Shown here piece after piece: positions 3,688-60,493 of a stretch of DNA of 64,000 nucleotides. Both the position numbers and the translations under genes were made by a program. Each line of letters begins with the position of its first letter. The stretch's first letter is position 1. Under the pieces are notes generated by a model. The model did not search any database. It had not been told where the DNA came from and saw nothing but the letters and a program-made list of their open reading frames with translations. Origin of the DNA: a virus; the IMG/VR virus record IMGVR_UViG_3300045988_176782, positions 1 through 64,000 of that record, one strand, 5' to 3'.

Positions 3688-3690
3688 ATA

Positions 3691-37908: not shown

Positions 37909-37916
37909 AAAAATAA

Positions 37917-37947
37917 AGAGGGTAGCAGAAATGCTACCCTCTTTTTT
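37917..37947. terminator. bidirectional intrinsic terminator between convergent modules
   Basis: AGAGGGTAGC-AGAAAT-GCTACCCTCT hairpin flanked by an A-run upstream and a T-run downstream. Confidence 0.75.
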
Positions 37948-40900
37948 ATGCTTCAACTAATTTTACAGTTTTTCCTTTACTTGTGATTGTCCCATCATAA
38001 TATAAGACAAATTCTGCTTGACTTGCATCTTGGCTACCAGCCATTAATACAACATCTTTAGCGTTCTTTGCGGTGCCGTTTAGGCATACATAACCTTCAC
38101 CGCTACCAATGGTTAATTTTCCCGTTAAATGTAAATTACCATTCTAATCAGTGTATAATGTTTTCTATTTACTCGTATTATACATCGCTAAACCATACTA
38201 AGAATTAGCATCAGTAGTTCCAGTGTAATGGCGGCCTAATTGGACTAAACGATTACCAGACTAATCATAGACTTCAAAACCATTTTCACTTGTAATACGA
38301 ACAGAATTATTTTGCGCGCCAATCCTTAATCCATTCCAATCTAAGGAAAGTAATTCTGTTCCCTTTTTCTGGAATAATAAGCCATTCTCATTGAATCTTA
38401 CGAAAGTTGTAGTATCAATATTTAAAGCATTATTAGTAGAGCTAACAGTAGTATCATCGCCAAAGGCATACAAGCCACTTTCATTCCATTGGAAACGAGT
38501 TTGATCACCGCTAAGAATACGAATAAATTTAGTATCAATTTGACCTGCGGTAATAAGCGAGGCGTTAATGCCTTTTGGTGTAATGCCCGTACTCCAAATT
38601 CGTTCGCCTTCTGCGTCAACAGAGTCAGAACAGAAGATGCCACCACCAATTAACTTAATCTAACCATAAACTCCATTGCGATAAGAGCTTTCATTGGTAA
38701 TAATCATACCGCCAGATTTATCTAAGGTAAGAGTGTTATTACCAAATTCAAAGTGCGCATTTGTGTTATCTAAAGTTTGTTGTAGTGTTTCTTGCGCAAT
38801 TTCGCCATTAGAAGTAAATGCCTATGCCGCAATATTATATTGAGTTTGATTTTGCTTCATTGCTTCATTTTGAGCAGAAATTGAAGAAAACAAATCTTCA
38901 AATTTTGTCTTATAATTAGCAATAGTGATTGTATCTTTAGAGGGCTAATCTAATTGATATTTTATGCCAGAAACATAACCACGCTCACGTTCAGCATCAA
39001 TTGTCCAGTCACAAACATAAACAAGTTGGCCAAGTTCAATATGTTCCATTTCGTCAGGAATATTTCCTATTTCAACTTCATAAGAATATTTAGGCTTGGA
39101 ATTATCCTTTGCAACTTGCCGCGCATCCAAATATAGCATCTCATTCGCACGAGAAACCTAATAAATAATATTATAATCAAAATCAAGAATATATTTAATT
39201 AGATTATTGTTTGTAACTTTTAAAGTAATATATGGTCGCCCTTCACGAAGCATAATTTGGTAATCTTCGTATTTAATTAAATCAGGATTATTTTCTACTT
39301 CGCCTTCAGCATTAATAGTATGCGTAGCATTACAATGAACAACTAAATTATCAGAATTATAATTAACATTTCTATAATCTAATTTAACTCGTGGATAAAC
39401 AATAGGATATTGAGTTATGTCATTAGAGGTAATTGTTAATTTTGGGTTATATTGTCGTACTGCTGTTGCGGACGCAGCATAAGATACTTGAGTGTAATTC
39501 TCATAATTAATGTCTGTAGCATTAAGTAATGCAACTGGAATAATATGAGGATTATCTTTATCCTTACTTGTATTTAAGAAAGAGAAAATGAAACCGCCAT
39601 TATTATAAAGACTTCTTACGCCTAAAAATTGTTGTAAGCCTGCAAAACGAGAGGTAATGTCGATTGCCAAAGAAGAAGCTTCCTCTTTAGATAACCATAA
39701 AATAGGTCGTAATGTTGTATTTGTGGGAGTATTATAATATAATAAAACTTTTCTAATATAACCAAAAATAGGAGTATTGTCTACAACGCCAGTATCACCT
39801 GGGTCTAATTTTAAATATAAATGCGAACCTTTAGGCAAAGTATCCGGAAGATTAAAATAGAAGAAATCAGAGTTATAACAAATTCTATATTGCTGAGTTT
39901 TTGTTAATCCAGATTCTTCCGTAATCTCTGCGCTAAATTCAGGATGCTCAAGTTCAATAACAAATTCTTCAACATTATCTAAAGCGTTAGACTGATATAA
40001 TTCTGAAAGATCAATATAAGGGTAATATTTATTTTCGTATTTTACCGCAGTTTCTGTATTAGCAATTACATAATAATTCTTCTATTCGTCCTCAAATAAT
40101 TTATCATCAAAAATATAATAAGTATTTGTTTCAGGATGACTATTCTCTCTTGAAAATACAGTATTAATGCCTTGGCCTGGATCTTCATAATCTTCTGCTT
40201 GCCAATATCCTTCACGAACCGCGGGGCCAAGTAAGCGTTCAAATTGGTAATTTAAATCTTCTTTTTCTTTCTATAATTCTTCACGAGCAAGAGTATTATT
40301 TTGTATCTATTGATTTAAACCGCATTTGGTAATGTTTGGATCTTCGTGGTCAATCTTTTCTTCAAGAAGTTTAATGGCATCTTCTTTTTCCACAATTGTT
40401 GCTTCAAAGCGCGTGCAAATTGCTGCATATTTATTCTTTGGCCAATAAGATAGTTTGAAATACACAATGGCGCCAGTTGAAAAATTATCAAAACCAGTTT
40501 GACTATTCTCTAAAGAAGTATAAACTGTGCTTGGGAAACCATCTTCATCAGTCATAATAAACCAATCATTAGGTAAAGAAGCGGCTTGCCCTGGAGAAGA
40601 TTTTACAAAATAAGGCGCCGGTATATTAGGGTCTGTGCTACCATATTTAAATAAACATTTTTTGCCTTTAGAAGGATTGTGTTCGTAGGCAGAATTGTTA
40701 TAGCATTCAATCGTAGAAGCATCAATACCAGTAACTCTAAATGTACCTTGGTTTATATTTGAAGCTGTTTGTGGAACAAGCGTAACAGAATAAGAGTTAT
40801 GCTCATCTTTTACAACGGGCTGTTTATAAGTATCATTATCGCGTAAAGTTTGATAATTGCCTAATTGCTCTTGTGCGCTTGCTAATTCCGCTTTTGCAGT

Positions 40901-42346
40901 AGCCAATTCTGCTTGAGTGTCATTTAAGGAAATAGTTAAATCATTATAATCTTGCTCTAATTTAATATACGCGCGATTGATGATATTTAACTATGTTTTA
41001 TAAGTATGTTCAATCCAATCATATTGTTCATCAGTGACTGAACCAATAGAATGAAGATAATCAAAGTTAAGAATAAATTCATCCAGTAAAGGATTACTTG
41101 GTGTATCCGCAATACTAACATAACCAGTATCAGAAATTTCAGACTGTAAAGGAGTTACATACAATTTCGTATAAATTTCACTGCTATCAATAGTGCGGCT
41201 AATAGACTGCAAATTATGTTGATAATTAATCGTATATGGGTCATCAGTTTTAATCGCGCGATTATAAAATACAACTCGTTTGCCTGTCCAAACGCGGCCA
41301 ATCTCATCCCAATAGGTGCCACGAAAATAGCCGTGGTCATCTACTTCATACTCATAAGTACAAAATACGCCAAAAGCTTCTGCAATGTCTTGGGTAATAT
41401 TATATTTATTGCTATTAGAACAATTTACATAACGCGCTTTTTCTTCAAAAGAGGTTACTTTTGTGGGTACTAATTGTTCATATAAAACTTTGTCATTTTT
41501 ATCTTTTACTGGCCAAGTAATCCAATTGGTAACATAAGCATCTTCGTAAATAGTTTCTTCATCACGAATTTGATACAACTATCTACTTGAGCCAGAATTA
41601 ATAACTAACCAATTTTTATCCTTATTATTTAATGTTTCTGCCGCGCCGCGTGCATTATAAAAACTACATCCATCTAATTGTGCGGCCATACCACCGTCAA
41701 TAAGGAAGTCACTTACATCCTAAAAATAACCGCGCCAGTCCATACGGATTTCATAACTCCAAGGAGTAAGCCAACGAATGACATTACCAGCTTCATCGCG
41801 GATATTCGGAAACACTTTATCTAGCCAATAATTAATATTGGCGACAGTATCACTATCTTTAGCAAAATCAATTTCTAATGTGTCTGCGGTTAGTTCAAGT
41901 TTATAACCAATTTTACCCAATTCGGCAAAAGCCAATCCATTACCAGTGACTTCTTTATAAACTCCAAAACTATTATCACGCCGATTTACAATTTTATCAA
42001 TAATGAAAGGAAAAACTTTTGTAATATAACCATCTTCAACAGAATCATCAGCGAATTGAATACTAACTTTTAATACTCGTGTATTTTCTGCTAATATTCC
42101 AGTTTCAATGTCTTTCCATCTTGGATTAGTAATTCGTTCATTAGGAACTTCACTAATGAAATATTTTGGAATTTTTAATGTTAAGGTCTGCGTTCCATCA
42201 TCCTTTATCTCCATCGCCGGTTCTACGACTTGACCCAAATAGTGGTCGTCATAGGACTACAAGTTTCCGATAAAATTGTCTTGTAGTCCATAGACGTCAA
42301 TCTTATATGGGCGGGATTTTTGAGATAGATTAAATTTAACGCTCAA
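37946..42346 (-). CDS. Tal-like tail tip/tail-associated protein (~1466 codons), read through many TAG codons
   Basis: RBS GGAGGG plus TTG 42346. The N-terminus (SVKFNLSQKSRPYKIDVYGL..EIKDDGTQTLTLKIP) resembles prophage tail endopeptidase/Tal proteins. Fragments 41720-42238, 40991-41578, 40307-40906, 39158-39838, 38945-39139 and 38261-38473 all share one frame and are separated by TAG. I hand-translated 37946-38263 (TAGs at 38144, 38165, 38198) down to TAA 37946-37948. Confidence 0.65.
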
Positions 42347-42368: not shown

Positions 42369-44051
42369 TTAAATGTAAGTATATTTATATTTTAATGTAG
42401 CGGTTTCAACAGTAAAAGTAGAATTACCTTTTTTAAAAATTAGATAATGGAAGGAATTGATTTTTCCTGTTTTTTTATCTAATGTGTCTCCACCATCTAA
42501 CATTAAGTAAGGGGACAAAGCCATATTACTGCAATTTTCTTTGATAGATGTTAAACATTGTAAGCCGCCAAGTAGGTCATTATTATATTTATAATCTACA
42601 GTACAAACTCCAAGTTCGCTATCAAAAGTTAAAGTATAATCATAAAAAGAATTAGTTAGAAATGTTTCATCCGTGAAATCATCAGATTTACGATTCGTAT
42701 TTGGACTTTCTCTACCATTGTAATCCGCAAACATACACAACATAATAACATTAAAGAAACCAAACCAATTTACTTCAATCTAAGCATTATTTCCAACTGG
42801 TCCAGTATAAATCTTAATCTTATTATTTGTAAAAGTATTAGTCCCTTCATTCTCATCTACTGTTTCACTTTCTGGAATGTAAAGTTGAGGGGATTTTTGC
42901 TTGCCATCATAACTCATAATAGTTTGAATTGCATTGGCGGCCCAACTTAATACTTTGCCATTAACAAGTTCTTCCCTTAATCTTTCTTCTAATGATACTG
43001 CGGCAGTAATTTCTTCTTGCTCATAGTAATCGTGTGCAATTTTTATTGCTTTATTTACTTGTTCAAAAGTTTCAGGCAAAGAAAATTTAAAGGTCTAACT
43101 TAATTGTTGGTTAGCTAAATCCCCTGTTGAAGAAGCTAATACAGAATAAGTTGTACCAATAACATTATATGGAGGTTCGGCAAATAAACTGCCAGATAAT
43201 TCCGCGGCGGTATTGTATTCATCATTTATTTCATTAAAATAAATCGGCTCGCAATTAGCAGATAACTATGGTAGCAATTCACTATTAACGGCGTGTCGCA
43301 AAGAAAAGCGAAGCACGGATTCACTATTATAAGTAGAAGGATTATAATAACGAAAAGAGCTACATTGAGTAAAAATGATGTCTTTAAAAGTGCCTTTCTG
43401 ATTAATTAACTAATTTGCGCCAATACAACAGTCCCCAATACCAGACCAACTATCTCGTGCAGGAATATTACTATGATACATCATACGAAGTGCAGCCTAT
43501 TGATTATCATTTGTTTTTGCAGTAGCTAAGTCTTTTATCGTGCTATCTAAAACGTGCTAGAAAGCGAACTAAAAAGGCTTATCCTAAATTAAGGTTAGCT
43601 TACATTCACCTTTATAAATTCTTGTTTTAAGTGGAATACCAGCAATAGTATCTTCCGTAAGAAAAGGAATAAAGGTAAAATTAACTACACTTTCAATTCT
43701 AACATAACAATAGCGGTCCCACCAAGTATCCTCATAAAATTGCCCATAATATCCTGGTCGGAAGAGCCGCTTAAATTCACTAAATTGCTGTTCTGTCATA
43801 CCATCTGTTGCTAGATTGTATGTATATTTTTTTGTCTTAATTGCTGTTCCCCAATAATATTGTCCCATAACGCCATTAATGGTTGATGTTTCATCTTCAA
43901 ATTCCGGTGAACCATCAAAAGAGTACCGGTCGCTACTTGTTGTAGCGACCAGTCCAAATTCACTAATGTGATGGCCATTGAAACTAAAATCAATGAACTC
44001 TTTTTCCCAAGGCATTAGGTTTTTAGTAAGTTCTTCAACCTAAATACCCAT
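42369..44051 (-). CDS. Dit-like distal tail protein with long C-terminal extension (~560 codons), read through ~9 TAG codons
   Basis: RBS GGAGG plus ATG 44051. FNGHHISEFGL... is a siphovirus tail-component-like N-terminus. Fragments 43584-44015, 42780-43079 and 42369-42743 share a frame. I hand-translated 43386-43586 and found only TAG interruptions. The gene ends at TAA 42369-42371. Confidence 0.6.
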
Positions 44052-44057
44052 AATCCT

Positions 44058-47000
44058 TTACCTCCGAGAAACACTGCGACTTGAGGATTTCGCAGCAATA
44101 GAATACATACGGTCCATAATGTCATTGGAGATGTCTTCAATGTCATAAGAATCGTTAAGCTTCGCGACGGAGATTTGAATGGCTCCATCGGAAATGTTGA
44201 TAGAGTTAGAGTTTGAAGTTGTATAATTTTGAGAAGCAAGATTACCAGCAAAAGAATCGTAATGAGCTTTTAAGACATTTACAAAGTCAGGATTCTTTTG
44301 AGTAAAGGCAACAAGTTGTTCTAAGCCGCGAGTCTGATTAGCATTTAAGATATATTCAGGATTTTGGGGAGTGCCATGTAACATTGCTAATCCAGTTTCA
44401 GAATTCATACCACCTGTAGAATATCCACGAATTTTTTTCTATATAGAATTAATACGTGCTCTACCTACAGTAGTTTTTTTATCATCAGCTTTAGCAGACG
44501 TTCTTGTGCCAGTCCCATTTTTAGTAAGTCCCTCTGCTGCTAATTTCTTGGCATCTGCATAAGAAACTGTAACTGTTTCACCAGAAATCATCGTTACTTT
44601 ACGATTAGAACCAGAGCCAAAAGAAGACTTACTAGAAGAGCTACTTCCACCAGAAGATCCACTAGAACTTCCACTACCAGAACTATTATTAGTCTAATTC
44701 TTTGCTTTCTCATTATCCTCGCGACGTTTCTTTTCTTGAGCAATATGTTCAAAGAAACTTTGTTCCGCTAAACGAGAAGCCTCTTTCTAAGCCGCAGCAA
44801 TCTATTCATCAGAACTTTGACCATTAATGTTCTTAAGCATATAAGAATTATAAGTGTCTAAGTAATCTCTATCCCACCCCATGCGGGTTGCGGCATCAAC
44901 GGAATCATAAACATTCTTATAGCCTTCTTTCCACTTAGAAGCGTCACTTGTGTTACCCTTTAATGTTTCAAAAGCAGGTTCAGCATACTTATTAGAAAGC
45001 ATAGTAGAACGTTCGTTTTCACTATATAAGCCAATCTTGAATGCCCATTCTTCTAGCATTTTCTTTTGTTCTAAGTTTGCTTTTTCTAAGAAACTATCCG
45101 CGCCAGCACCACTTAAGAAATCAAGCATAAAGGCGTTACCCTAATCCATGATTTCATAAACCTTAGTCCATAATATGCCATTTTCTTTTTCGTAATCTAA
45201 AGTATCTTGAAGTAATTGGACTTGCTGTTCCATTAGTTCAGTTTGCTTAGTATTGGCATCCTTAATAACCTCAAGCGCATCTTCTTGCTTTTGGAAGTAT
45301 TCGTCTTTTAGCTTTTCACTAATAGTTTTTTCTAAGTTCTAAATCTCACTTGCACTACCGCCACTACGACGAAGTAGAGAAAGTTGTCGTTGTAAGGTTT
45401 CCCGTTCAGCAATGTTTTGATTAGTAGAATATTGATTCTTTTCTTTCGTGATTGCATTTTGAATTGAATCAGCGTATGCTTTGTTCGCGTCGGTAATAAG
45501 TTTATTGGATTCTTTTAAATCTTTAATGACTTTTTCCTTAACTTGAACAATTGCATCATAAATCATTTGGCTAACTTCAATTTCATTATCACGAATTTCA
45601 TCATTAACTTTTTGAATTTCTTCTGCTAAGCTTTCTAATTTTTCCTCTGTCTCTTGTACAGAATCACGAAGACCATCATAATCATCAATTGGTTCTTGCA
45701 AAGCACTAAAGAATTCTTGAACATACTCTTCATCTGTCCATTCTTTCTTAGTGTATTCGCCATTACCAACTGTTTTACCGTTTTCATCTTCGGTTTGACC
45801 TTCTTCCCAAGTGAAGCCGCGTTTAAATTGACCATTAGTTACTTTCTCAATCCAAGCAACCTAATCTTTAATGGTATAGCGTTCAGGATTATCGCCCATA
45901 TCATTAAGTTCTTGTAAAACTTCAAGGGCGCCTTTACCACCATTAGTCTCATTGCCTTCAACATATTGTAATACGCCATCTGCGCCAACTTTATAGAACT
46001 TGCTAATCCAGTTGGAAGAATCATTAATTGCGTCAGCTTGACGCTTTAATTCATCTTGTTGATAACGGTACAAATCACGTTGAGTATTGAGTTGGTCTTC
46101 AAGTAAAGCTTGACTTTCTTTTAGATTGCGGAGATAAGCGGCACCTTGGTCAAAACCTTTAGAGAGATTATTGCGTTGCGCAACAAGAGTATTGATGCGA
46201 TTCTCAAGATCAACAATTTGTCTTGAAAGGTTATACCATTCTTGTAAATCTGCAATATAAGGTTTGAGGCTGGCGTTCTTTCCACTACCGCCACCTCCAC
46301 CTCCCCCGTCGCCACCAAGCATATCGGCAGCAGATAGAGAGTTAAGTAGATTTGTCCAAATTGATTTTGCACGACGAACTGCAGCAAGAGCAGAACCAAT
46401 ACCACCAGCATAAGCATTACCTTCAACAAGAGCATTTCCACTATACATTGAAGCACGTTTATAGGCAGCATTAAGTTGAGTGCCACGAATTTTATCAACC
46501 TTTCCATCAATAATACCTTGAGTTTGAAGATGATTAAAAACGATTGCATCAGAAGGCAGATTTACAAATTCTGCGCCATCTTCGCCAAGTAGATGATATT
46601 TATTATCATAAACTGCTAACTCCGGGCCAAGTTCGCCAACAAGAGTTTTACCTGCCAAAGCAGCACCATAAATTTGACCATTTACAAGAGCTTTACCATC
46701 TACATTGCCTGTATAATATGGCAAGTCGACATTTAAACCTGCACCACTCGGTGCAAGAGGCTTCCCACCAGTTTTTTTAACACTAACTGTGCCAGTGAAA
46801 CTGGTATTTACACTTTTAGGAATTTCAGCAATGATTTTTTTAACTCGTTCTACAACTGAAATTATATTCCCTACTATACCACTAAAAGAAGTCTCATGAC
46901 TTGAAGGAACAGATTCAACAGAACTAGTAATATCTTTTGCAGTTTTATCTACATTTTCATCTTTTGCAGAAAAAGTGGTTTCTACTGTAGCGTTTTCTGC

Positions 47001-50000
47001 ACTCATATTTCCAAGTAAGAACTACAAAGCAGAAGAAATTAAATCAATACCATTAATTGTAAAGTTAACGTTGATGTCTTTATTTTTTCCTGCAATAGCG
47101 TCTAACTCACCTGCGACCTTATCTAACTTACTTTCTGCTATTCCAGCATTAGAAGCAATTGTAGCAATTGAAGCTGCGACAACAGCTAAGCCTAAAGCAG
47201 AAGTAGAAATAGTAGATAATGCAGTAGAAATTGCATTTAAAGGCTCAGCATCTAAATTAGAAAAATCTAATTTAAAAGCGTCGCCAGACATTAGGTCAGA
47301 AATGGACTGTAGAGTGGCAACAATTTTATTTAGACTGACTTCAACAGAATCAAAAACAGTATAAGTAACATTACCAGTATCAGAAATAGTTATTGGCTTT
47401 CCTAAGTCCTTAGTAAGCTAATCTTCTGCTTCCTTCCTTAATTCATCAGAAAGAGGAGCGCCATTGGGACCTTCAACCTTAAGCTATCCTTCTTCTACAG
47501 TAAGTGTAATTGTACCAAAAGGAGGCGGGATAGTTTCGTCAGTACCAGTACCAGTTATATCAGCAATTTTTCTTTCTATTTTTGTGCCAATTCTATAAGT
47601 TACTGTTTCTTCACCGACATCTACAATATAAGATTGGTCAGATTCTAAAGAAGCGCCATAAACGGAATTAAGATAATCTTCTATGGTTGCACGATTGCTC
47701 TTATCTTTATTAATATAATCAACTAAATTTTCTCCTGTTAATTCATTGCCTTTATCGTCAACTAATATTAAACCACCAGGAGTTAATTTAATTTGTCTAT
47801 CAACGGTAGCCTCGCCATCTTTTAGCTTAATATTACTAATAGCTTTTCCGCCAGCTTCTGAAAGCATTTTAGAATACTATTCAAAATTGGCTTGTTGATC
47901 TAACAGCTTGGCAAATTTTGTAGGATCGCCAAATAAATCTAAGAAAAACTACTGTGCCTTAGCGGGATCTGTGAAGATAGCTTTGCCATCTTTAAATTCC
48001 CATTCAAGACCGGCTTTGCGCATGTCAGAAGCAAGTAAATCAAGCATTCCTTGAATGCCTTCCGCACCTAAATCTGACATTGTAACAAAGAAATCACTAC
48101 CAATTAAAAACTTCTCTGGATTAAATTTGCCGTCTGTGAAGAACATTGATTCAAAAAATTTATCTTCATCAAAACCAAAGTTCTAACCAAAAGTATTTAA
48201 TCTGTTAGCAATATCTGTTAAACCAGCATTACCTTTATCCCAAGCTACTCCTAAAACAAACTATAGTTCTTTTTTAACATCTTCATTGTCTTTGTTGGCA
48301 TTCCAGAAATCAACTAAATCACGGTAAGTTTCAATTGTCTCGCCTTTTCCATCCCCATCAACATCAATTCCGATGCCTAAGTTAAGCTTAACATCACCAA
48401 TATCTTCCAGTGATTGCATGGCAAGAAGCATTTGTTCTATACCATTTAAATAATCAATTTGTTGTTTAGCAACCTCTTTTAGGCCATCAGTCATTCCGGT
48501 TGCCATAGAAGATGCCGCGGCGCTAATATCAATCCCAACATCAACGAAGCCTTTTGCGTCAACTTTACCAATAGTCTCACTGGCAGCAACGACCTTATTG
48601 GCCCAATCTTGAATAGTCTGTCCAGATTTAAGCCATTCATCCTATCCAACATTACTTAAGAAAGAACCTGCTTGACCTAATCTATCAATTTGGTCAATAA
48701 TATTATAAAAATCCTTAACTCCCATTTCACCGCTTTTTGCAAAGCTTTGAAGGGAGCTCTTAAAGGTATCAATGTTATCAACTAATTGCGTCCAATGTTC
48801 TTGTTGTCTATTTGCAAATGGGTCTTGGCCCATAAAATCAAATTCAGCACTATCAGCAGATTCTTTCGCTGCGGATGCAGCAGCTTGAAGAGCCTGAGCA
48901 TAGCTCCACGCTTCTTGCGCTGCTTCACCAGTAGCGTCTCCCATAGCTTGAGCAGCGGCAAACGCTTCTTTTGCTGCATCTTCGGCATCTTGATAACTCT
49001 TATATAAAGGATTGTCAGAATCTTGCCACAAATTCCATAGTTCTTGGCCAAACTCGCCAACACCAGTTAAGCCAAAAGTATCTTGAACTTGGCGGCTCAT
49101 TTTTGCAATTAAAGCCTGTTGATTTTGAGAACCTAAAGTAATACCTTTGTAAGAAGAAATATTACCACGAGAATTTAATCCATATTGTTTTGCTAAAGAA
49201 AAGAATTCAGAATTAGTTAATTCACCAGAAATGCCTTTTCCTAATGCGTCAAGATTAGAAGAAAGAGAGTCACGAATAGCATCTAAGATAAGTTGAATAA
49301 TTTCAGTATATTTTTCTTGAACAATAGAAGCATCAATTGTACCAGCAGATACCGCTAAATCCATCTAACCTACAAGATAATTTAAAATACTTTCCAAACT
49401 ACCAGAAGTTAAAGTTGCGATTGCTTCCTGAGTTTGACGTAAGCCCATCTTATCTAATAAGCTTTGAGCATCACTTACACTCATCTTTTCGCCAGAAGCA
49501 GCTTGTTCTAAAGCAGAACTTACAGAAGACATATAATCTTCCGTTGCAGCTTGAACGGAAATCTTGGCTTGTTCAATTATTCTCTCACTATATGCTTGCG
49601 CGCCAGCAACATCACTAATACTGGATAGATTTTCTTCAAGTTTTCCAACATTTAGACGATACTTGCCATCTTCGCCAAGTTGTAAAGCATTATGATAATA
49701 TTGGCTAACTTTTTCACCAAAGGTAAGATAAATGTCTGCTAAAGCATCAACTAAGTCAGAAGCAGAGATACCTTCTGCACTTGTTGAAAGTTTTTCATAA
49801 GCAGAATCTAAACCTTCAATTTGGTCAGTAGTATATTCTTTAGCAATATCAGAAAAGCCTTCACCAAACTAATTAACTATCCCATCATAATCTAATGCAC
49901 GCTTAAATGCAGCAGAAGCAGTAGATTTAGCATCAGAATAAGAAATATCATGATCTGTAAGAGCTTCACGTGTTTTGGTTAATAATGAATTTACCGCGCC

Positions 50001-53000
50001 TTGAAGATCATTTTGGACATCTTTTAAAAATTCTTGAACTTTATTCTTATATTCGCCTTCATCAAGTTTATCTATGTCTGCTTGAGTGAATTCACCAGAA
50101 ATGATGTCAGCGGAAGTAGAGAGAACACTTTGTAAACGATAAACATAAGATTCTAAAATATTATCTGCCCAGCGTTCTGGGTCTTGAATATTAGATTTCT
50201 CAGCTATCGTGATTAAGCCATTTTTGCGAGACTGCGCCCAAGTCTCAGTTTGCTGGCCACTTAAAATATCTTCTAAGAAAGTTTGTTCATCTTGAGTTAA
50301 ATTTTTGTAAACATCAGTTCCTAATGCACTTTCAATGTCGGCCTAAGTAATATTTTTTTCAGCAGAAGACTCAGCCAAATCTTTCGCAGCAGATAATAAA
50401 CTATCAGAAGTAGATTGAAGAGTATTAACAAAAAGTTGCACAATTGTATCAACTGCAGATTGTTCAATTCCTGGTATTTGCGTTAAAATATCTTTAAAAT
50501 CGTTTTCAGTTAACTTTACATCGCCAAAAGCGTTAGTAGCAATTTCAGGTAATGAGTCAATTTGTTCCTTACTTAGTCCTGCCGTAGCTAATGCATTTTT
50601 TAAAGACTCAAGAGTTAACTGTCCACCTTGTGCTAAACTTTTAAAAGTGTCAGTTATCTCGAAACCCTCAAGAGTTTTTTCTCCAAAATGCTCAGAAAGC
50701 GCTAAATCAGCTTCTAATTTTTTAGTTCTATATTCTAATTGAGCATTAATTGTATCGCTAAAAGTGTTATTTAGATATTCTAAATACGCAGTAGCCTTAG
50801 TAGAATCAGTTGCATCTTCTGTTTCAGCTACTTTCTTAAAGGTTTGTTCAGCTTCATTTAATAAGTTAGAATCTTTACCTAATAAAGAAGTCAATAACAT
50901 ATCTGCAGCAGAAGAATACTATGCAATCAATTGTGTACTTTCTGCTTGTTTAGAAAGTTCTTGTTCTTGCTCCTCCAAACTCTAAATAGTAGAATCATAA
51001 TACCCTTCAACTTCAAGAGAAGTTCTATTACGCTCTATGCCTTCGCGAGTTTTATTTAAAGCTTCTTCACGTTTTTTAATATCATCAGCACTTAAATTAT
51101 CAGATTCATTAATAAGTGTAATCTAATCATCAATATAACCAGAATATTCTTCTTGCCAATTATCAAAATCTTTAGATAAAACTTTATTTAAAGTTTCTGC
51201 CGCGCCTATATAAGTGTAAGTACCTTTATCAAAATCAAAGAAATTAGTATCAGCTAAAGAAACCCCCAATTTTTTTGCAAGTTTCTAAGCTTCGCTAAAA
51301 TCCATCTAAGAAGAAACGATATCAAATTCTTTAATAGTATCATCCATTTTTTCGGCTATGCCGTCAACAAAAGCATTAATAGATGTTACCATATTTTCAG
51401 CATAAGGAGCCATTTCATTTAAGCCAGAACTCTTAATTGCTGTTTCGTCGATACCAGCTCTCTTTAACTACTCTTTAGCTTCTTTAATACCAGAATGAGA
51501 AGTTAAGTCCGCTTCAGCAATGATGTTAACTGCCTTTTCTCCCTATTGCGCGGCCCAAGACCAAAGTGTATCTTGAGCTTGCATTAATTCGCTTGCTTTT
51601 GCAGAAGTCATTCTGCCAGATACAACCTAATCACGAAGTTGCTTAGCATAAGAAGTGATTACAGATTGATAAATTTGTGGGACATTTTGACTTAAAGAAT
51701 TGGCTACTTCGCCAAAACCGTGTGCTGTCAAAGCTTTAGAGGTTAAATCAGCTACTTTAGAAAATTCTTCTTCGTAGGTTGCAGAAAATGCTTCAGGAAG
51801 TTTAATTCCTAAGTCTTCTATTTGACTTAAAAATTGTTGATAAGTAGTCTTTCCAGCGATGAGTCTTTGAACTGCATCATTATAATTGTCAACTTCACCT
51901 AATGTGACTAAAGAATCATATAGCCCAGAAATGGTAGAATCTAAATCTTCTAAACCATTATCAATAGTTGTATCATCTAATTTACTCCAATCGCCGTCTG
52001 CCCAACGAAGCAAGATTTTAGAAACAACTTCATCTGCACCGGTCAATTGCTCATAAGCTTGGCCGATTAAATCTCCTTCTAAAATTCTGTCCTAAATTTT
52101 AGAAGTAATTTGTGCTTGTGCAATTTTCGGTTCAGTAGTTTCAATAACAGCTTTTTGAGTGGCAATTTTCTATTCTAATATATTAGACTATTCGATGAAA
52201 TCTCGCCAAGAAGATGCAGAAGAACCTTTAATAATTGCTCTTGTATCCTAATCACGGTATTTATCTTTAATGGCATAAACGCCCGCGGATTTTAATAGTT
52301 CTAAGAAGTCTCCATAAAAACCTGCATTAGTATTATTATAACTTTTCTCGAAGAAATCATGAACAGCTTGATTATTAAAATCTAATATTTTAGTAATATT
52401 ATATTTTATTGCTGAGGCGGAAGAATATTTTCCATTATTAGTCTTTTTGAAAATAGGAATTTCTTCCGCAGAACTATAACCTAATTGTGCCGCAGTTGCA
52501 TTCCATTCTTCATTATTGGTAGGCAAACGAACAGAATTTACACCAGGCCCATAAGCACGTCGGGTTCCTAATAATTCTTCTTGCTCTGCTTCATATTTAG
52601 CTAAATCTTTCTAAGCTTTTTTTAACTCTGCTTTTGCAGAATCAATTGTAACCTGAGCGCTTTGCTTACGAGCAGCCGCCAAAGTGTTCTCAGCACTTGT
52701 TAAATCAATTATAGCATTTCCAGCAGCATCAAAAGAAGCACTTAATTCTGGTACAGATTCAAATAAAGAATTATTTGCATCAATCCATTCTTTACGAGCT
52801 TCTTCACTATCATATTGAGTGCTTTGTAAAGATTTAAGCTTTTCAATACCTTCTTCTAGTGTAGAAACTTTTTGTTTTGCTTCCGCTCGTTTCAAATTAG
52901 CTTCGTCATATTTCTCTGTAGCTTTTTGAGCTTCTTCTTGAGCTTTTTCTACTTTAGAAGGAATTGAGGAAATAAAACTAATTAAACCACCTAAGGCCCC

Positions 53001-54026
53001 TACTGCAATACCAATAGGACCCGCGGCACCAGCTAAGGTAGGGATTGCTGAAGCTAAAATAGATGCTGTAGAACCGATAGATAAAGCGTTACCAGCACCT
53101 GAAAATGCCGCGCCTAAAGTCTGATTACTTTTTGCAGCGTAAGATCCTATTGCAGAAAGAACACCGCCACCAACTTGGGCACCGATTAAAAGGCCACGAT
53201 GCTATTGAGCGAAAGTCAAATTCTAAGTAGAACCACCTTGACTATCAGTAATAGGCATCCACTACATTTTACCTGTTTGTGGATTCTAACTTACTTGCCA
53301 ACTGGTGGGAACATTTGACTAAGTTTGTACTCTAACGCCATTAGCAAATGATTGAGCGTTAGTTTTTCCGCCTTCTTCGCTAACAGTACGCATATTTTCT
53401 AACATACTTTTGTAGTTCATACGAACTTCACCAAAAGCATTAGCAAATGCACTTATACCTAAACTACCAATTAATTTAATAGCAGAAATAATTCCTGCTA
53501 CATTTAATAATGCAGTAGGTTTAGAAAGTTTGTTAAATCCTTCTAATACTGAATTTAAACCATCAAGAAAACCCTTAAAAAAGTCTCCATTGAAAATATC
53601 CATGTAAAATTGTTGGAAACTTGTTTTTAAATTTGCTTGCTTACTTTCCAAACTTTCCAAAGTTTTACTATATTGAATTAATCCCGCATCTTCTGAATCT
53701 TCTGCGGCGGTTGCAACTTCGCGTAAGCGCTTGCCATTACTGACCAGAGCGATAAAACGGGACTATTGACGGTTACCTGCTGCAATAGTTGCAACATAGC
53801 GTTGAGAACTCTTATCTAAAGTATCCCATTTATCAGCTAATTCAAAGATTACATCGTCAAAATCTCTAAATTGGCCTTGGGTATCCAGCAAAGAAACGCC
53901 AACAGAAGCAAGAGCAGTTTGGACTTTGTTTACATCTATAAGTTCGCCGTCTTCGTCAAAAGCGGAACCTTTCTTCATCTCGCCAAAACGGGAGATAATA
54001 CTCTTAAGGGCGGAACCAATGTTTTC
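44058..54026 (-). CDS. tape measure protein, exon 2 (3322 codons plus stop), dense in-frame TAG
   Basis: Twenty track fragments between 44058 and 53978 share one frame. It continues the TP901-type TMP core (ENIGSALKSIISRF...ATIAAGNRQ) and has a conserved C-terminal block (LVGELGPELAV..GAEFVNLPSDAIVFNHLQT). A poly-Gly/Ser stretch is present. The exon ends at TAA 44058-44060. Confidence 0.7.
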
Positions 54027-54366
54027 CCTTTATGTTACGAAAAGATTCGCTATATCTTTCCTTCTACAGGCTTTCCCTGTAGAGCAGACTATATATTCAT
54101 CCTTGTTTTACAAGGCGGGAGCCTTTTCAGACCGCTTGGCCTTACGAGAGCGTAACTCTCTAGTCGTTGAACCTTCTTCTTGCGAAGCTTGGCTGCGGGT
54201 TAAGCAATCTTTAACTTTTTTACTGTACCAAAGCCACTACACTTTGCCGCATATTTTTGATATGTTTAGTAGTCAAAGCTCTAAGCCTTTCCCCGTCAAT
54301 TAAACTCCATTCATATTAAGGATTGCTCCTTAACGACCCTAATTCAAGAAACCTTGAAATTTAAGG
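54027..54366 (-). mobile_element. ORF-less group I intron in the tape measure gene
   Basis: On the - strand it contains AATTGACGGGGAAAGGCTTAGAGC, GGTTCAACGACTA, ATATATAGTCTG and the ..CGTAACATAAAGG 3' end, which are family motifs shared with the other introns. The reading frame shifts between its flanks, and splicing joins ..EATRES|ENIGSALK... The junction is accurate to about 3 nt. Confidence 0.7.
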
Positions 54367-56427
54367 ACTTTCACGCGTTGCCTCTACCATAGTAGCGATC
54401 ATCGCGGTTGTATTTTCAAAACTACTACCAACGTTTGCTGCGCCGGAAGCAGTTTTAGACATGGCTTCAATTAAGTCTTGCGTATCAGACGCAGTTTTCG
54501 CAGCTACATTACTGTAAACATCCGTAACATGAGCTGCGTCAGTCATATCCATGTTGAACGCACGAATAGCTACAGTCATACCATCTGCAGCATCACTGTA
54601 AGAAATACCAGCAATACGAGCCATCTTTAATGTCTCGGTTGTTGTTGCCATTACATCCGCAGTTCCCAAGCCTTGTTGGTAATAAAGTTGTGTTACTTCA
54701 TAAACACCTTGGGTAGTTACACCATATTGTTTTGCGATGGCCATATAATCATTAATTTGGCCCCATAAATCCTCAACACTAAAATCAGTAACTACCGCAA
54801 TGTTAGTCATTGCTTTATCAAGATTTTGAATATCATTATAAGCTTCGCGGATACCCTATCTAATATAACTTACAATTTCTCTGGCACCCATCCAACGAGC
54901 AATAGACATTTGTAAATTACGCTTAAACATTTCTGCTTCATTTTGAGCTTGCTATGCCGCAGCGTTAAGGTCACCTTGTGCACGTAAATTATCTTCTGTT
55001 CCAGTACGATAATCTCTAATATTAGAATCAATACTCGTTGCGCCGCCAGTTTTTCTGACGCGAAGAGCATCTTGGTATCCTTGCTATTCTTGAGTTAAAC
55101 TATTTAATTTATCTTGTAATTCTTGTATTGTTTGAGCTTTTAGAATAGTAGAAAGATTCTCAAATTCTGTAGCAAGACTTCGTAAAGAAGGAATTAAAGT
55201 AGAAGTTATGCTAGTAATATCATTTTGGATATTAGCATACTCTTGTTCCTAAGTATTTAACTTCCCCTAATTTGCGCGGATATAAGTGTCTGCTTCATTT
55301 AATTGAGTTTGCGCAGTAGTGTAACGGTCAACGGATTGTTGAACCATAAATTTATTTGCGTAATTACGGCCCCAAGCGCTAACTTTTTGAACTTTCTCTA
55401 CACCTTCAACACCAAGGCCAATTCCATCATTTTCTAATTGAATGGCTTTAGCAATCGCGGCCATAATACTGTCTTTTAAACCAGCAACTGGGCCACTAAT
55501 TACAGATTGAATTTCGGCATTATCAATCTTAAATGCCTGCATCATCTATGTTACTACGTCTCTACCGACATCAGTTAGAGTATTGGAAGATTTATTGTAG
55601 TAATCAGTATTACTTGTAATTTCTTTTTGAATAGAATTAAGAACATTTCTTGCTGTATAATTCGCTGTCAAACCACTAACAGTTGTCGCTTGCGCTATAC
55701 TTGAAGCAAAGCGACTTCTATTATAAGTTTGACTGGTTACACCCATTTCAGTCTAAGCAGAAGTTCGTTTTGTCTATGCTGCAGCCATTCCTTGACGCAA
55801 TGGCGCTAATTTAGCCATAACATCAGATGCTTTTTGCTCTAAACTAGCAAGCTATTTTTCTGCATCACTAATACCAGCTCTAAATGCAGCAGCATTAGCA
55901 CTTAAAGATTTATCTGCATTAAAACCTTTAAGTTTAGTGGCAGTAGCATCTGCCAAAATAGAGCGGCCTGTTCTTCCTTTACCATCGTCATAAGTTTCTA
56001 AAAACTCTCGGCTATTTTTCTTTGGCTCTGCGCCGCCTTCAACAGCACGCAAATCCTTTTTAATGGCAGAAATTTTATTAGCAAAAGTATTTAAGTCTCG
56101 CTTTTCTGCATCGGTTAAAATAAAATTACTTAATCCCGCGTTTTGGACTTGTCGTGCGGAATTTTGAACGGTATCATAAAAAGATTCAACCTAACGAGTA
56201 GCTTTTTTTAATTGGTTGCTATCCACCATTGGTCCTGCTAATGTGTCAGCAAATTCTTGCGCTTTAGCTTTTAATTGGTCAAGCGTTTTAGACATACTGG
56301 TATACAAAGCAGTGCCAGGATTCATCTAAGCTAATTGAGATTCAAATTGTTGAACAATTTGATCCATTTGCTTTTTATTTGCAACGAAATCAACAGCTAC
56401 TGTATAACTTCTTGGTCCTGTGGCCAT
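54367..56427 (-). CDS. tape measure protein, exon 1 (687 codons, 11 in-frame TAG by hand translation)
   Basis: RBS AAAGGAG plus ATG 56427. Fragments 55852-56052, 55546-55746, 55267-55545 and 54361-54810 share a frame. The TP901-family TMP core is present (AKTASDTQDLIEAMSKTASGAANVGSSFENTTAMIATM). Confidence 0.7.
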
Positions 56428-56461
56428 ATTTCTTCTCAACTCCTTTTACCCAAAAAAATAA

Positions 56462-56484: not shown

Positions 56485-57300
56485 TTATATACCAGAGATG
56501 TCTTCATCAAGATATTGTATTTCGCATACAACATCATCTCTTCCTTCCTTTGTCTCTGGCTACGCTATAACTCTAAAAGTAGACACCATAGGGTCTGCTC
56601 TTTCTCCCATTCTCAAATTAATATTACTCAATATACGAATTTTAGGCATACGCAAATAACCTGTGCGTAGTAAGCCCTCATTCTCATCCTTCATTTGAAA
56701 AGTGGCTTCAAGAGTATATAAATTCGTAAATCTCTCACGATTCATAGAATAAGTTATTATATCTTTTTTATATTCAAAATAATAATCGCACATAATGGTT
56801 TGGTCGGCAAATTCTTTTCCAAAATCAATCTTTAAATTGTCAATTAAAATAGGAAAAATGCGGCCTTGAATATTGTTGAAATCATAAGTAAAGAAAAAGT
56901 TTTTATATTCTATATCATTCAAAATAGGATGATACTTTAAATACCCTTTTCCATTCTCATCCAACATAATAACTTCATTATATGGTAAAATATTGTCGTC
57001 TACTTTATTTAACATATTCGCGCCAAGAAGTAGGTTAAAACTTATTGTATTTATCGTTCCATTAGAAAACGCAAATGTTGTTTCTTGACGGTCCTCCCAA
57101 ATAACGCGAGGTTCATTATGCCAACCGCCACGAGCCATAATAGGGCGGACATTTTCAGAAAGAAGCGCAATTTGTAAGTTATCAAAATAAATGACTGGTT
57201 CGCCTGCTTCAAGTAATCTTTCTCCGAAGGCGACTTCATTTTTTGTTTTTATACAAACGCGCTCAAGATTTTTTATACCAAGTTCTTCAAGAGTGTTCAT
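56485..57300 (-). CDS. tail tube-like protein, paralogue of the major tail protein (246 aa to TAG, 271 aa if TAG is read through)
   Basis: RBS GGAGGT plus ATG 57300. It shares LGIK.. and A.GGW.N....W.. blocks with the intron-split gene upstream. TAG at 56560 is followed by 24 more sense codons to TAA 56485-56487. Confidence 0.55.
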
Positions 57301-57328
57301 TATTTACCTCCGAAGATAAAAAAATAAA

Positions 57329-57602: not shown

Positions 57603-58322
57603 TTAATCCAAAAATTTCCATTTATATCCAAAAGTGGTGATTCGTTTTCCTTCACATACCGCACGAATATTACGACCAGCCGCCGTAGGTTTGCCTAAAG
57701 CTCTTGCCGCCTCATTGGCTGAAGAAAAAGTGGCTATTAAATTTCCTTCTAAATCATATTGTCCAGTTTTTCGTCCGTGTGTTTTCTTGGCATTAACTGG
57801 AATAACACAATTATCTTCTTTATATTTATAAATTGAGTCTTTATAATGCGTAATCTCCCCACGACAATTCTGCGAAACAGCTTGATAGGGTATACCCATT
57901 TTTCTTGCGCATTCTTTTATAGATGCGAAACTTTCAATAAAAATCCCTTCTAAATTATAACGAGAAACTTCACGTTTTAAGCTACAAGTATTAGCTATAT
58001 ATTCTACTGCTCCTCCTGGTTTAATATTATAACCATATTGAGGATTTTGCGTTTTATACAATTGAATATAATATTTTTCTTTATCATTTAAATCTTCATA
58101 AGGGACTTCTTCTAAAATTTCTACAATAAAATTTTCATAACCATACTTTTCAAAAGCTCGCATAAGTGCCGTACAATTTCGATACCCTTTTCCGTCTTTT
58201 CCTGCACGAATTTTTAAAGACTCAATTGTTTTACCGACATATTTTTTATTAGATGGAGAAGTATAGCAATAAATAAAGCCATGATTTTCTTTTGGACGCT
58301 GTTTTAATAATTCTGTATTCAT
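57603..58322 (-). CDS. GIY-YIG homing endonuclease (intron-encoded)
   Basis: GFIYCYTS..KYVGKT..KIRAG motifs plus repeated C-terminal DNA-binding modules (..GYKWKFLD). It contains no TAG. Confidence 0.85.
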   Translation of the reverse strand: MNTELLKQRPKENHGFIYCYTSPSNKKYVGKTIESLKIRAGKDGKGYRNCTALMRAFEKYGYENFIVEILEEVPYEDLNDKEKYYIQLYKTQNPQYGYNIKPGGAVEYIANTCSLKREVSRYNLEGIFIESFASIKECARKMGIPYQAVSQNCRGEITHYKDSIYKYKEDNCVIPVNAKKTHGRKTGQYDLEGNLIATFSSANEAARALGKPTAAGRNIRAVCEGKRITTFGYKWKFLD

Positions 58323-58343
58323 ATTTTCCTTTCTTGGATTCTT

Positions 58344-58452
58344 GGCTGCTGATTGCCCAATCCTATTTTATGTTACTACAAATTTTTATATTTGTCAAAT
58401 TATTACTAATTTGTTGAGTTAAATAGGCTCTAAGGGGATTCCAGCAATTAAG
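58344..58452 (-). repeat. intron-internal repeat, copy A (intron 5)
   Basis: About 109 nt, near-identical to 60667-60774. On the - strand it includes TTGACA-N17-TAACAT and a palindrome ACAAAT..ATTTGT. Confidence 0.7.
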
Positions 58453-58498: not shown

Positions 58499-58631
58499 GT
58501 GGAAGGATCGCCTTCTGCCTGCATGGTTAAGGTTACTTCGCTCAACATCTTAGCCTTGTTGATGATGAATTGGAAAGCTTCATCCTTACCAGTGGCTTCA
58601 GAACGAATTAGAGCATCGCCTACAACCTTGT
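58499..58631 (-). CDS. major tail (tube) protein, exon 5 of 6
   Basis: Encodes (Y)KVVGDALIRSEATGKDEAFQFIINKAKMLSEVTLTMQAEGDPS(T). Confidence 0.55.
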
Positions 58632-60220: not shown

Positions 60221-60468
<248 letters not shown>

Positions 60469-60493
60469 AGTCCCAAGTGACCAATTTAGGATT
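60469..60493 (-). CDS. major tail (tube) protein, exon 3 of 6 (25-nt micro-exon)
   Basis: AATCCTAAATTGGTCACTTGGGACT encodes NPKLVTWD plus 1 nt and lies between two intron cores. A 13-nt version that starts after ..AAATTG is also in frame. Confidence 0.55.

What the first reader, a model, noticed from the sequence alone, without database searches (positions are those of the whole stretch)
44058..56427. Giant tape measure protein (~4009 codons)
The two exons (2061 and 9969 nt) are each a multiple of 3 and share TP901-type tape-measure core motifs across the junction. The gene starts at RBS plus ATG 56427 and ends at TAA 44058, immediately before the Dit-like gene.

The classical rule derived from lambda gives about 1.5 Angstrom of tail length per TMP residue. 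If it holds here, it implies a tail of roughly 600 nm. By my hand translation the first 687 codons alone contain 11 TAGs.
Basis: partly seen in the sequence, partly recalled or inferred. Interest (0 to 1): 0.65.

Follow-up and report, generated by a model that had tools for sequence, protein, structure and literature searches.

The report
Giant intron-split phage tape measure gene

Summary
On the minus strand, ATG 56427 opens a frame that runs to U54364 (688 codons, 11 in-frame TAG). A second frame runs from 54026 to TAA 44060-44058 (3322 codons, 37 TAG). Neither holds a TAA or TGA, where about 217 are expected.

The 337 bases between them (54363-54027) are a group I intron (Rfam 65.5 bits against a threshold of 50). 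A U-G wobble sits at the 5' splice site and a G ends the intron.

Splicing gives a 4010-residue protein. Its PF10145 tape-measure core (96 bits) crosses the junction in one piece. The junction ...ATRESP|ENIGSALK is colinear with intron-free alleles. Two relatives carry a single uninterrupted ORF of 3979 and 4040 codons under the same code. TAG alternates with CAA/CAG in a relative that is 90% identical in protein, so TAG encodes glutamine.

The gene lies between a tube-like gene and Dit-like and Tal-like genes, in an SPbeta-type late module.

None of this is new in kind:
- Code-15 gut phages with tape measure proteins over 3100 residues are published.
- So are group I introns in tape measure genes.
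- A library search found at least 32 related protein clusters of 4000 residues or more, the longest 5744.

The roughly 0.6 micrometre tail is inference only.

The parts
54364..56427 (-). Tape measure exon 1: ATG 56427 to U54364, 2064 nt, 688 codons, 11 in-frame TAG, ending ...ATRESP
   Evidence: Stop-codon map. 688-residue homologues P0013-P0016 at about 90% identity. Junction fixed.
54027..54363 (-). Group I intron without an ORF, 337 nt. Its first bases, UAA, are the apparent stop codon of exon 1; its last base is G54027.
   Evidence: Rfam RF00028 hit 54359-54064, 65.5 bits (gathering 50), E 2.3e-14. Fold z-score -2.9. 97.9% identical to the copy in L001, where the flanking exons are only 81-86% identical. 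The copy in L030 carries a LAGLIDADG ORF.
54335..54368 (-). P1 helix. Exon G54368 and C54366-U54364 plus intron U54363-A54361 pair with the internal guide 54342-54335. The U54364-G54339 wobble marks the 5' splice site. The helix encloses a hairpin UUCAAG-GUUU-CUUGAA.
   Evidence: Minimum-free-energy fold. The two differences from L001 in this helix (A to G) keep pairing as wobbles.
44058..54026 (-). Tape measure exon 2: 9969 nt, 3322 codons plus TAA 44060-44058, 37 in-frame TAG, beginning ENIGSALK...
   Evidence: Colinear with L009 (87.6% identity over 3345 aligned residues) and with L006 to the last residue.
53799..54735 (-). DNA encoding the PhageMin_Tail (TP901-type) core, residues 565-764 of the spliced protein; the intron interrupts it
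   Evidence: PF10145, 96.2 bits, E 3e-27, one stretch covering profile positions 8-192 of 201.
52953..53519 (-). Two hydrophobic Gly/Ala-rich segments (residues 858-887 and 1002-1046)
   Evidence: Kyte-Doolittle 19-residue windows above 1.4.
47130..47234 (-). Third hydrophobic segment (residues 2953-2987)
45864..47021 (-). Conserved module near the C-terminus (residues 3024-3409, includes ...VGELGPELAV...). It is shared with hundreds of giant tape measure proteins and always lies about 550-1100 residues before their C-terminus.
   Evidence: phmmer against 1.84 billion representatives: 934 hits at E<=1e-3, most of them 2000-5744 residues long. Two of them (4848 and 4322 residues) have PF10145 near the N-terminus.
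56440..56446 (-). Shine-Dalgarno-like AAAGGAG, 12 nt upstream of ATG 56427
   Evidence: Sequence read.
56485..57303 (-). Upstream neighbour: tube-like virion protein, 271 residues
   Evidence: 95% identical to the L001 gene whose product hits PF27173 YomU_Tube. PHROG 2729 'virion structural protein', E 2.5e-15.
42369..44051 (-). Downstream neighbour: Dit-like gene (560 residues, 9 in-frame TAG in its open frame), starting 6 nt after the tape measure stop
   Evidence: N-terminal 143 residues hit Sipho_tail PF05709 at E 0.018, below threshold. 10 of 13 family members hit it, best E 1e-5. P0125 has a precomputed PF05709 hit. Top fold matches are SPP1 and TP901-1 Dit, but not significant.
37946..42346 (-). 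Next gene downstream: Tal-like tail protein (1466 residues, 15 in-frame TAG)
   Evidence: PF06605 Prophage_tail, 31.1 bits against a cut-off of 31.3, E 2.5e-7.

Best explanation
[quoted passage not shown] The phage is an uncultured siphovirus-type phage with an SPbeta-like structural module; its closest relatives are 165-178 kb contigs, at least some from gut samples.

Two things must happen before the protein can be made.

1. **Splicing.** The primary transcript carries a 337-nt group I intron without an ORF, inserted in the most conserved part of the gene (the TP901-type core). It has to splice itself out. P1 pairs the last exon bases with an internal guide and places a U-G wobble at U54364; G54027 is the terminal G. 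Ligation gives ...ATRESP-ENIGSALK...

2. **Recoding.** The 48 in-frame TAG codons must be read as glutamine (genetic code 15), presumably by a phage-encoded suppressor tRNA lying outside this window. This restricts translation to late infection, as proposed for recoded phages in general.

**Shown here:** the reading frames, the intron family match, the exact junction, TAG = Gln, one-gene status in relatives, and the tail-module context.

**Inferred:** actual self-splicing, the timing role of recoding, and the ruler function. By analogy with other TMPs, the protein would fill the tail tube lumen and set tail length. At 1.4-1.6 Angstrom per residue that predicts a tail of about 560-640 nm.

The intron is a mobile element. 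A relative carries the same intron at the same site with a LAGLIDADG homing endonuclease ORF, and the intron is far more conserved than its exons.
For: **Frames and codons.** No TAA or TGA in 4010 codons against about 217 expected; 48 TAG in frame.

**TAG = Gln.**
- A TAG aligns with the invariant Q of AGNRQQSRF.
- Against the 90%-identical L009, 11 of the 15 window TAG positions that differ are CAA/CAG, and 9 of 12 in the reverse direction.
- Recoding is confined to the minus-strand late genes. All of them end in TAA or TGA, whereas the plus-strand ORFs read normally.

**Intron.**
- RF00028, 65.5 bits.
- P1 with the U-G wobble at the homologue-defined junction.
- An uninterrupted allele of the insertion site in L009.
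- Intron-free homologues P0001, P0002 and P0004-P0007 are colinear.
- The copy with a LAGLIDADG ORF in L030 hits PF14528 at 30.4 bits.
- Intron identity 97.9% against 81-86% for the exons.

**One gene.** L006 and L008 have single ORFs of 3979 and 4040 codons with no intron and are colinear with ours. The spliced L009 protein is 4022 residues with no stop.

**TMP identity and context.** PF10145 crosses the junction. YomW, YomV and YomU_Tube homologues lie upstream at 88-98% identity to L001 genes. Tal-like and Dit-like genes lie downstream.

**Length rule.** SPbeta has a 320 nm tail (PMC8270828). P23-45 has a 5002-residue TMP and an 800 nm tail (10.1101/2022.12.01.518664).
Against: - No suppressor tRNA is present in the 64 kb window or in the 20 kb loci of relatives, so the decoding agent is unseen.
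- Splicing is not demonstrated. The Rfam alignment ends at 54064, 37 nt before the 3' splice site that the reading frame requires, so a further 3' hairpin has to be assumed.
- Only about 200 of the 4010 residues match any curated family. Pfam, PHROGs and PDB sequences found nothing else, so the ruler role of the remaining 95% is by analogy.
- Structure prediction of residues 3024-3409 was of low confidence (pLDDT 47).
Confidence: 0.9

Rival explanations
1. Two separate genes. The intron is dead or is never spliced, so the phage makes a 688-residue N-terminal fragment and a separately initiated C-terminal protein of about 3300 residues (a split tape measure).
For: Gene callers used for public assemblies list two products: 688 residues plus more than 3190. 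An in-frame ATG exists at 53978.
Against: The split would cut the PF10145 core in the middle. The intron scores above Rfam's gathering threshold, and its P1 wobble sits exactly at the junction. The exons ligate with no gap relative to intron-free alleles. Relatives without the intron have one ORF. The intron is 98% conserved where the exons have diverged to 81-86%, as expected for an active element.
Confidence: 0.04
2. One protein, but not all of it measures the tail. The roughly 1900 unannotated residues in the middle, or the roughly 600 residues after the conserved module, would be a cargo or enzymatic domain ejected into the host, as with the RNA polymerase fused to the P23-45 tape measure. 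The tail would then be well short of 600 nm.
For: Precedent: P23-45 (10.1101/2022.12.01.518664). A 4322-residue relative carries an SH3 cell-wall-binding domain near its C-terminus, so family members do acquire non-ruler domains. Residues about 2700-2950 look beta-rich by eye.
Against: No enzymatic or binding domain was detected in our protein by Pfam, PHROGs or PDB sequence search. Composition is uniform and favours helix throughout, with no internal repeats. Family lengths vary continuously from 2250 to over 4000 residues, as expected of a ruler.
Confidence: 0.15
3. A decayed pseudogene read in the standard code, or an assembly artefact. The TAG codons would be real stops and the long frames accidental.
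For: In the standard code the region breaks into about 50 short ORFs.
Against: Finding no TAA or TGA has a probability of about 1e-97. TAG is interchangeable with CAA/CAG in relatives. The same architecture occurs on many independent contigs.
Confidence: 0.01

Closest known systems
phAss-1 / proposed 'Phassvirus' group of code-15 human gut phages (OQ749652; PMC10607447)
   Same: TAG-to-Gln recoding of late genes, a siphovirus tail module, and relatedness to Spbetavirus-type phages. The tape measure proteins are very long (3149-3209 residues; I measured 3155 codons with 110 TAG in L004). It is the best hit among deposited phage genomes.
   Different: Only 27-31% identity, and only over the core. 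The phAss-1 genome is 136 kb, against 165-178 kb for our relatives. No group I intron was found in the phAss-1 locus. Ours is about 850 residues longer.
Bacillus phage SPbeta structural module (YomU, YomV, YomW ... tape measure YomI)
   Same: Relatives' genes next to the tape measure gene hit the SPbeta-derived Pfam families YonD_N, YonB, YomW, YomV_2nd and YomU_Tube. The window has 88-98% identical copies of the YomW, YomV and YomU genes. SPbeta is a long-tailed siphovirus with a 320 nm tail.
   Different: SPbeta uses the standard code. Its tape measure protein is about 2285 residues (from my own knowledge, not checked here). There is no DNA similarity.
Group I introns in tape measure genes of Bacillus cereus-group prophages (IVS1-3; Tourasse and Kolsto 2008, PMC2504315)
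   Same: Group I introns at several alternative sites in the conserved part of a TMP gene, present in some alleles and absent in others. The same pattern occurs here: site A in L009, site B in the window and L001, site C in L001, and sites A and B together in L030.
   Different: Different phage lineage, standard code, and TMPs of about 1200 residues. I did not test whether the introns are homologous.
Thermus phages P23-45 and P74-26 tape measure protein (5002 residues, tail 0.8-1 micrometre)
   Same: A giant TMP that sets an extremely long siphovirus tail.
   Different: No sequence relationship was found. Their N-terminal part is an RNA polymerase. They infect a Gram-negative thermophile and use the standard code.
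Stop-codon-recoded gut phage clades (Borges et al., 10.1101/2021.08.26.457843; Peters et al., PMC9523058)
   Same: Recoded codons are confined to structural and lysis modules while replication genes stay standard. Intron-borne homing endonucleases are also recoded. TAG = Gln has been validated by proteomics in other phages.
   Different: I did not place this phage in any of the named clades. No suppressor tRNA lies within the window.

Membership tests
TP901-family tail tape measure protein (Pfam PF10145 PhageMin_Tail) | Core domain scores above the curated threshold | tested here: met
   96.2 bits against a cut-off of 33.2; residues 565-764 in one stretch across the splice junction.
TP901-family tail tape measure protein (Pfam PF10145 PhageMin_Tail) | Gene lies in the tail module, after the tube gene and before the Dit and Tal genes | tested here: met
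   A YomU_Tube homologue lies upstream. The Tal-like PF06605 hit is 31.1 bits against a cut-off of 31.3. The Dit-like hit is below threshold. No chaperone gene with a frameshift was looked for.
TP901-family tail tape measure protein (Pfam PF10145 PhageMin_Tail) | Long, mostly helical protein with hydrophobic segments | tested here: inconclusive
   Three hydrophobic segments and uniform helix-favouring composition. The AlphaFold model of residues 3024-3409 is mostly helices but has pLDDT 47.
TP901-family tail tape measure protein (Pfam PF10145 PhageMin_Tail) | Protein length sets tail length | not testable with these tools
   Needs virions and deletion mutants.
Group I intron (Rfam RF00028) | Covariance-model score at or above the gathering score | tested here: met
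   65.5 bits against 50, E 2.3e-14, full-length model match.
Group I intron (Rfam RF00028) | 5' splice site after a U that forms a U-G wobble in P1 | tested here: met
   The U54364-G54339 pair appears in the minimum-free-energy fold. It coincides with the junction derived independently from homologues.
Group I intron (Rfam RF00028) | Terminal G at the 3' splice site, and exon ligation restoring the frame | tested here: met
   G54027 precedes GAAAAC. Ligation gives RESPENIG with no gap relative to the uninterrupted alleles L009, L006, L008 and P0001-P0007. The Rfam alignment ends 37 nt earlier.
Group I intron (Rfam RF00028) | Self-splicing activity | not testable with these tools
   Needs an in vitro transcription and splicing assay, or RNA-seq.
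Genetic code 15 (TAG = Gln) phage | In-frame TAG in genes that otherwise lack stops, with TAA/TGA as terminators | tested here: met
   48 TAG and no TAA or TGA in the tape measure gene. All 12 minus-strand open frames listed end in TAA or TGA, and 9 of them carry in-frame TAG.
Genetic code 15 (TAG = Gln) phage | TAG aligns with Gln codons in homologues | tested here: met
   An invariant Q column. 11 of 15 and 9 of 12 changed positions are CAA/CAG against L009.
Genetic code 15 (TAG = Gln) phage | Phage-encoded suppressor tRNA with a CUA anticodon | tested here: inconclusive
   None in the window or in six relatives' 20 kb loci. The window covers only about a third of a roughly 170 kb genome.
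SPbeta-like phages | Shared structural gene set | tested here: met
   Indirect. The Pfam families YonD_N, YonB, YomW, YomV_2nd and YomU_Tube are on record for L001 genes. The window encodes 88-98% identical copies of the YomW, YomV and YomU genes. These families are not in the local Pfam copy (one search gave no hit for the tube-like protein).

The most novel reading that the evidence does not exclude
Part of the 95% of this protein that matches no curated family may not be ruler. The candidates are the middle stretch of about 1900 residues and the roughly 600 residues after the conserved module. Either could be a cargo or enzymatic domain delivered into the host with the DNA, as the virion RNA polymerase is fused to the P23-45 tape measure. 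Alternatively, the intron and the 48 TAG codons could together act as a deliberate two-step lock on the timing of tail assembly.
Probability: 0.1. Interest if true: 0.55.

Novelty: new member of a known kind. Interest (0 to 1): 0.3.

Why it matters
**For annotation.** In the standard code this 12.4 kb region breaks into about 50 meaningless ORFs. Even code-15 gene callers report two genes. Recognising the intron and the recoding together recovers one 4010-residue protein.

**For biology.** The locus is a clean example of three parasitic or regulatory layers stacked on one essential late gene:
- amber-to-glutamine recoding;
- a mobile group I intron, with a sister copy that carries a LAGLIDADG endonuclease;
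- alternative intron sites within about 20 nt of each other in relatives.

It also adds to the evidence that very long tails (predicted at 0.5 micrometre or more) are widespread among large uncultured phages whose relatives turn up in gut and rumen metagenome bins labelled mostly as Bacillota.

It changes no concept, because each element has published precedent.

Tried and rejected
**Searches and predictions that gave nothing useful**
- Homologue search with the whole 4010-residue protein timed out.
- Megablast of the 12.4 kb region against deposited phages: no match.
- tblastn of the last 904 residues against deposited phages: no match.
- PHROGs on the last 1410 residues: no family.
- PDB sequence search on the same stretch: only low-complexity noise.
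- Word-indexed homologue search with residues 2601-3260: only two fragments.
- The TAG-free 386-residue stretch gave pLDDT 47, so I did not use it for fold search.
- First scan of bacterial genomes with the single protein found nothing.

**Ideas considered and rejected**
It would need a one-residue gap against every homologue, and U54367 is unpaired in P1.
- A 3' splice site at G54064 (the end of the Rfam alignment). It is out of frame, and an in-frame TAA (54032-54030) lies between it and 54026.
- The plus-strand ORF 53806-54303, antisense to the intron, as a homing endonuclease: no Pfam hit.
- Internal tandem repeats as the source of the length: self-BLAST found none.
Full report
**1. What the sequence shows**

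In the standard code the minus strand of 44058-56427 breaks into dozens of short ORFs. Mapping each stop codon separately changes the picture.
- The frame that starts at ATG 56427 has no TAA or TGA until 54363-54361, and holds 11 TAG.
- A second frame has no TAA or TGA from 54029 to the TAA at 44060-44058, and holds 37 TAG.
- From the composition of the gene, about 217 TAA/TGA are expected in 4010 codons and none is found (P about 1e-97). The two other frames of the same DNA hold 138 and 480.

The whole window follows the same pattern.
- The plus-strand genes (1-37.5 kb) read normally. They end in TAA (21), TGA (5) or TAG (1).
- All the minus-strand open frames I listed (38-64 kb) end in TAA or TGA, and 9 of the 12 carry in-frame TAG.

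**2. TAG encodes glutamine**

- One window TAG falls on the invariant second Q of AGNRQQSRF, in an alignment with ten homologues.
- I compared codon by codon with relative L009, which is 90% identical in protein. 33 of the 48 window TAGs are also TAG there. Of the 15 that differ, 11 are CAA or CAG. In the reverse direction 9 of 12 are.

This is genetic code 15. It has been described for gut phages and validated by proteomics in others (10.1101/2021.08.26.457843; PMC9523058).

No tRNA gene lies in the window or in the 20 kb loci of six relatives. The suppressor, if phage-encoded, lies elsewhere in a genome of roughly 170 kb.

**3. The gap is a group I intron**

*Family match and fold.* Rfam's Intron_gpI model matches 54359-54064 (minus strand) over its full length, at 65.5 bits against a gathering score of 50 (E 2.3e-14). 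The fold of 54375-54015 is more stable than all 100 shuffles, with a z-score of -2.9.

*5' splice site.* The fold contains a P1 helix. Exon bases G54368 and C54366-U54364, plus intron bases U54363-A54361, pair with 54342-54335. The U54364-G54339 wobble marks the 5' splice site.

*Independent support for the junction.*
- Intron-free homologues read TTRE(S/A)(P/A)(E/Q)N(I/L)GSA with no gap against ...ATRESP|ENIGSALK.
- L009, whose intron sits elsewhere, has the uninterrupted DNA ...CGTGAAAGTCCC GAAAACATCGGT....

*Resulting coordinates.*
- Exon 1 is 56427-54364: 2064 nt, 688 codons.
- The intron is 54363-54027: 337 nt, ending in G.
- Exon 2 is 54026-44058: 9969 nt including the stop.

*3' end.* The Rfam alignment stops 37 nt before the 3' splice site. 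The extra bases can form one more hairpin (GAAAGAU...AUCUUUUC). A splice at G54064 is excluded, because it is out of frame and an in-frame TAA lies downstream of it.

**4. The intron is a mobile element**

- L001 (ENA ERZ26859181 NODE_9, 174 kb) has the same intron at the same site. It is 97.9% identical over 337 nt, while the flanking exons are only 81-86% identical.
- L001 has a second group I intron about 220 nt further on, after ...DKNSQR.
- L009 has a different group I intron (43.6 bits, below threshold) six codons upstream of our site.
- L030 (IMGVR_UViG_3300045988_170892) has both, only 22 nt apart. There our intron carries a 265-residue LAGLIDADG ORF (PF14528, 30.4 bits), inserted where our copy has a short hairpin.
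- L006, L008 and phAss-1 have none.

Our copy is therefore the form of a homing intron that lacks the ORF. The conserved tape measure core is a hot spot for insertion. The same was reported for prophage tape measure genes of the Bacillus cereus group (PMC2504315).

**5. It is one gene and it is a tape measure**

*Domain.* The spliced 4010-residue protein has a single PF10145 PhageMin_Tail match (96.2 bits) at residues 565-764, crossing the junction at 688|689. The best database homologues are named TP901-family tape measure proteins.

*Intron-free relatives.* L006 and L008 carry single code-15 ORFs of 3979 and 4040 codons.
- L006 aligns with our residues 474-1143 (52%) and 1987-4010 (32%, to the last residue).
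- L008 aligns with residues 9-1155 and 3144-3727.
- The spliced L009 protein is 4022 residues with no stop.

*Neighbours.*
- Upstream are 88-98% identical copies of L001 genes whose products hit YomW, YomV_2nd and YomU_Tube.
- Downstream is a 560-residue protein with weak Dit signals: Sipho_tail at E 0.018, 10 of 13 relatives hitting it, and top fold matches to SPP1 and TP901-1 Dit at E about 0.2.
- Next is a 1466-residue protein that hits Prophage_tail (Tal) at 31.1 bits against a cut-off of 31.3.

*The rest of the protein.* Outside the core, Pfam, PHROGs and PDB sequences find nothing. There are three hydrophobic segments and no internal repeats.

**6. How unusual is it?**

*Deposited phages.* No deposited phage is close: there is no megablast hit. 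The best tblastn hit is phAss-1 at 31%. phAss-1 belongs to a published group of code-15 gut phages, compared with Spbetavirus, whose tape measure proteins are 3149-3209 residues (PMC10607447).

*Related loci.* On 19 related loci from metagenome-assembled genomes (gut and rumen sources where the record titles name one), the tape measure ORF is 2404-3257 residues in standard-code members and 2253-3808 in code-15 members.

*Library search.* I ran a full HMMER search with the TAG-free stretch, residues 3024-3409, against 1.84 billion representative proteins.
- It found 934 relatives at E of 1e-3 or better.
- Most are 2000-5744 residues long, and the match always lies about 550-1100 residues from the C-terminus.
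- At least 32 of the top 150 are 4000 residues or more.
- Two that I checked (4848 and 4322 residues) have PF10145 near the N-terminus.

*Isolated phages.* The record among isolates is the 5002-residue tape measure of P23-45 and P74-26, with tails of 0.8-1 micrometre.

Our gene is therefore near the upper part of a large family's range. It is not an outlier.

**7. Mechanism and tail length**

*Shown:* the gene structure, the code, the intron family and junction, and the genomic context.

*Inferred:* the transcript self-splices, and the 48 TAG codons keep the protein from being made until amber suppression is active late in infection (the model). The protein then lines the tail tube and sets its length.

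SPbeta has a 320 nm tail and a tape measure of about 2285 residues (my own knowledge, not checked here), which gives 1.4 Angstrom per residue. P23-45 gives 1.6. It remains untested. Part of the protein might not act as ruler; one relative carries an SH3 domain.

**8. Verdict**

The finding is a new member of known kinds: a giant tape measure protein of code-15 SPbeta-like gut phages, and a group I intron in a tape measure gene. It is a good annotation case and of modest scientific surprise.

Noticed in passing
window 60253-60866 (minus strand): Two more group I introns (60540-60866 at 78.5 bits, 60253-60478 at 71.9 bits) lie back to back, separated by a 61-nt mini-exon. They sit in a gene whose downstream exon (60155-59748) is 88% identical to a YomU_Tube-type gene of L001.
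   Followed up: partly
window 58513-60155 (minus strand): The same tube-like gene seems to be split a third time. L001 residues 1-136 map to 60155-59748 and residues 137-175 to 58629-58513. The roughly 1.1 kb between holds a GIY-YIG/NUMOD1 endonuclease ORF (58742-59713, 2 in-frame TAG). No Rfam intron hit covers this interval.
   Followed up: partly
window 57603-58367 and 61013-61615 (minus strand): Two further homing-endonuclease-type ORFs lie in the late module: one with a GIY-YIG-like motif (by eye) plus NUMOD1, and one HNH_3 plus NUMOD1. With three introns in 7 kb, the structural operon is heavily colonised by selfish elements.
   Followed up: partly
L030 1560-3000 (IMGVR_UViG_3300045988_170892): Twin group I introns lie 22 nt apart in the tape measure core. 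The second is the window's intron carrying a 265-residue LAGLIDADG ORF, which itself contains in-frame TAG.
   Followed up: yes
window 54027-54363 versus L001 12065-12401: The intron is 97.9% identical between two phages whose flanking exons are only 81-86% identical. This points to recent horizontal spread of the intron.
   Followed up: yes
window 37500-38000: Strand switch and sign change of GC skew between a plus-strand block in the standard code (1-37.5 kb) and the minus-strand TAG-recoded late block. Only 1 of 27 plus-strand ORFs ends in TAG.
   Followed up: partly
window 53806-54303 (plus strand): A 166-codon ORF antisense to the intron and to the start of exon 2. It has no Pfam hit and is probably a chance ORF.
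   Followed up: yes
window 44560-44680 and about 46320 (minus strand): Low-complexity tracts in the tape measure protein: a run GGDGGGGGGGSG near residue 3260, and a Ser/Gly-rich stretch near residues 3790-3830.
   Followed up: no
L012, L015, L017, L024, L029 (genome-contig hits): Contigs of 163-184 kb carrying related tape measure genes are binned into metagenome-assembled genomes labelled Erysipelotrichaceae, Fimenecus, Eubacterium, Mollicutes and Melainabacteria. They are probably whole phage genomes mis-binned with bacteria, so the labels are unreliable as host assignments.
   Followed up: no
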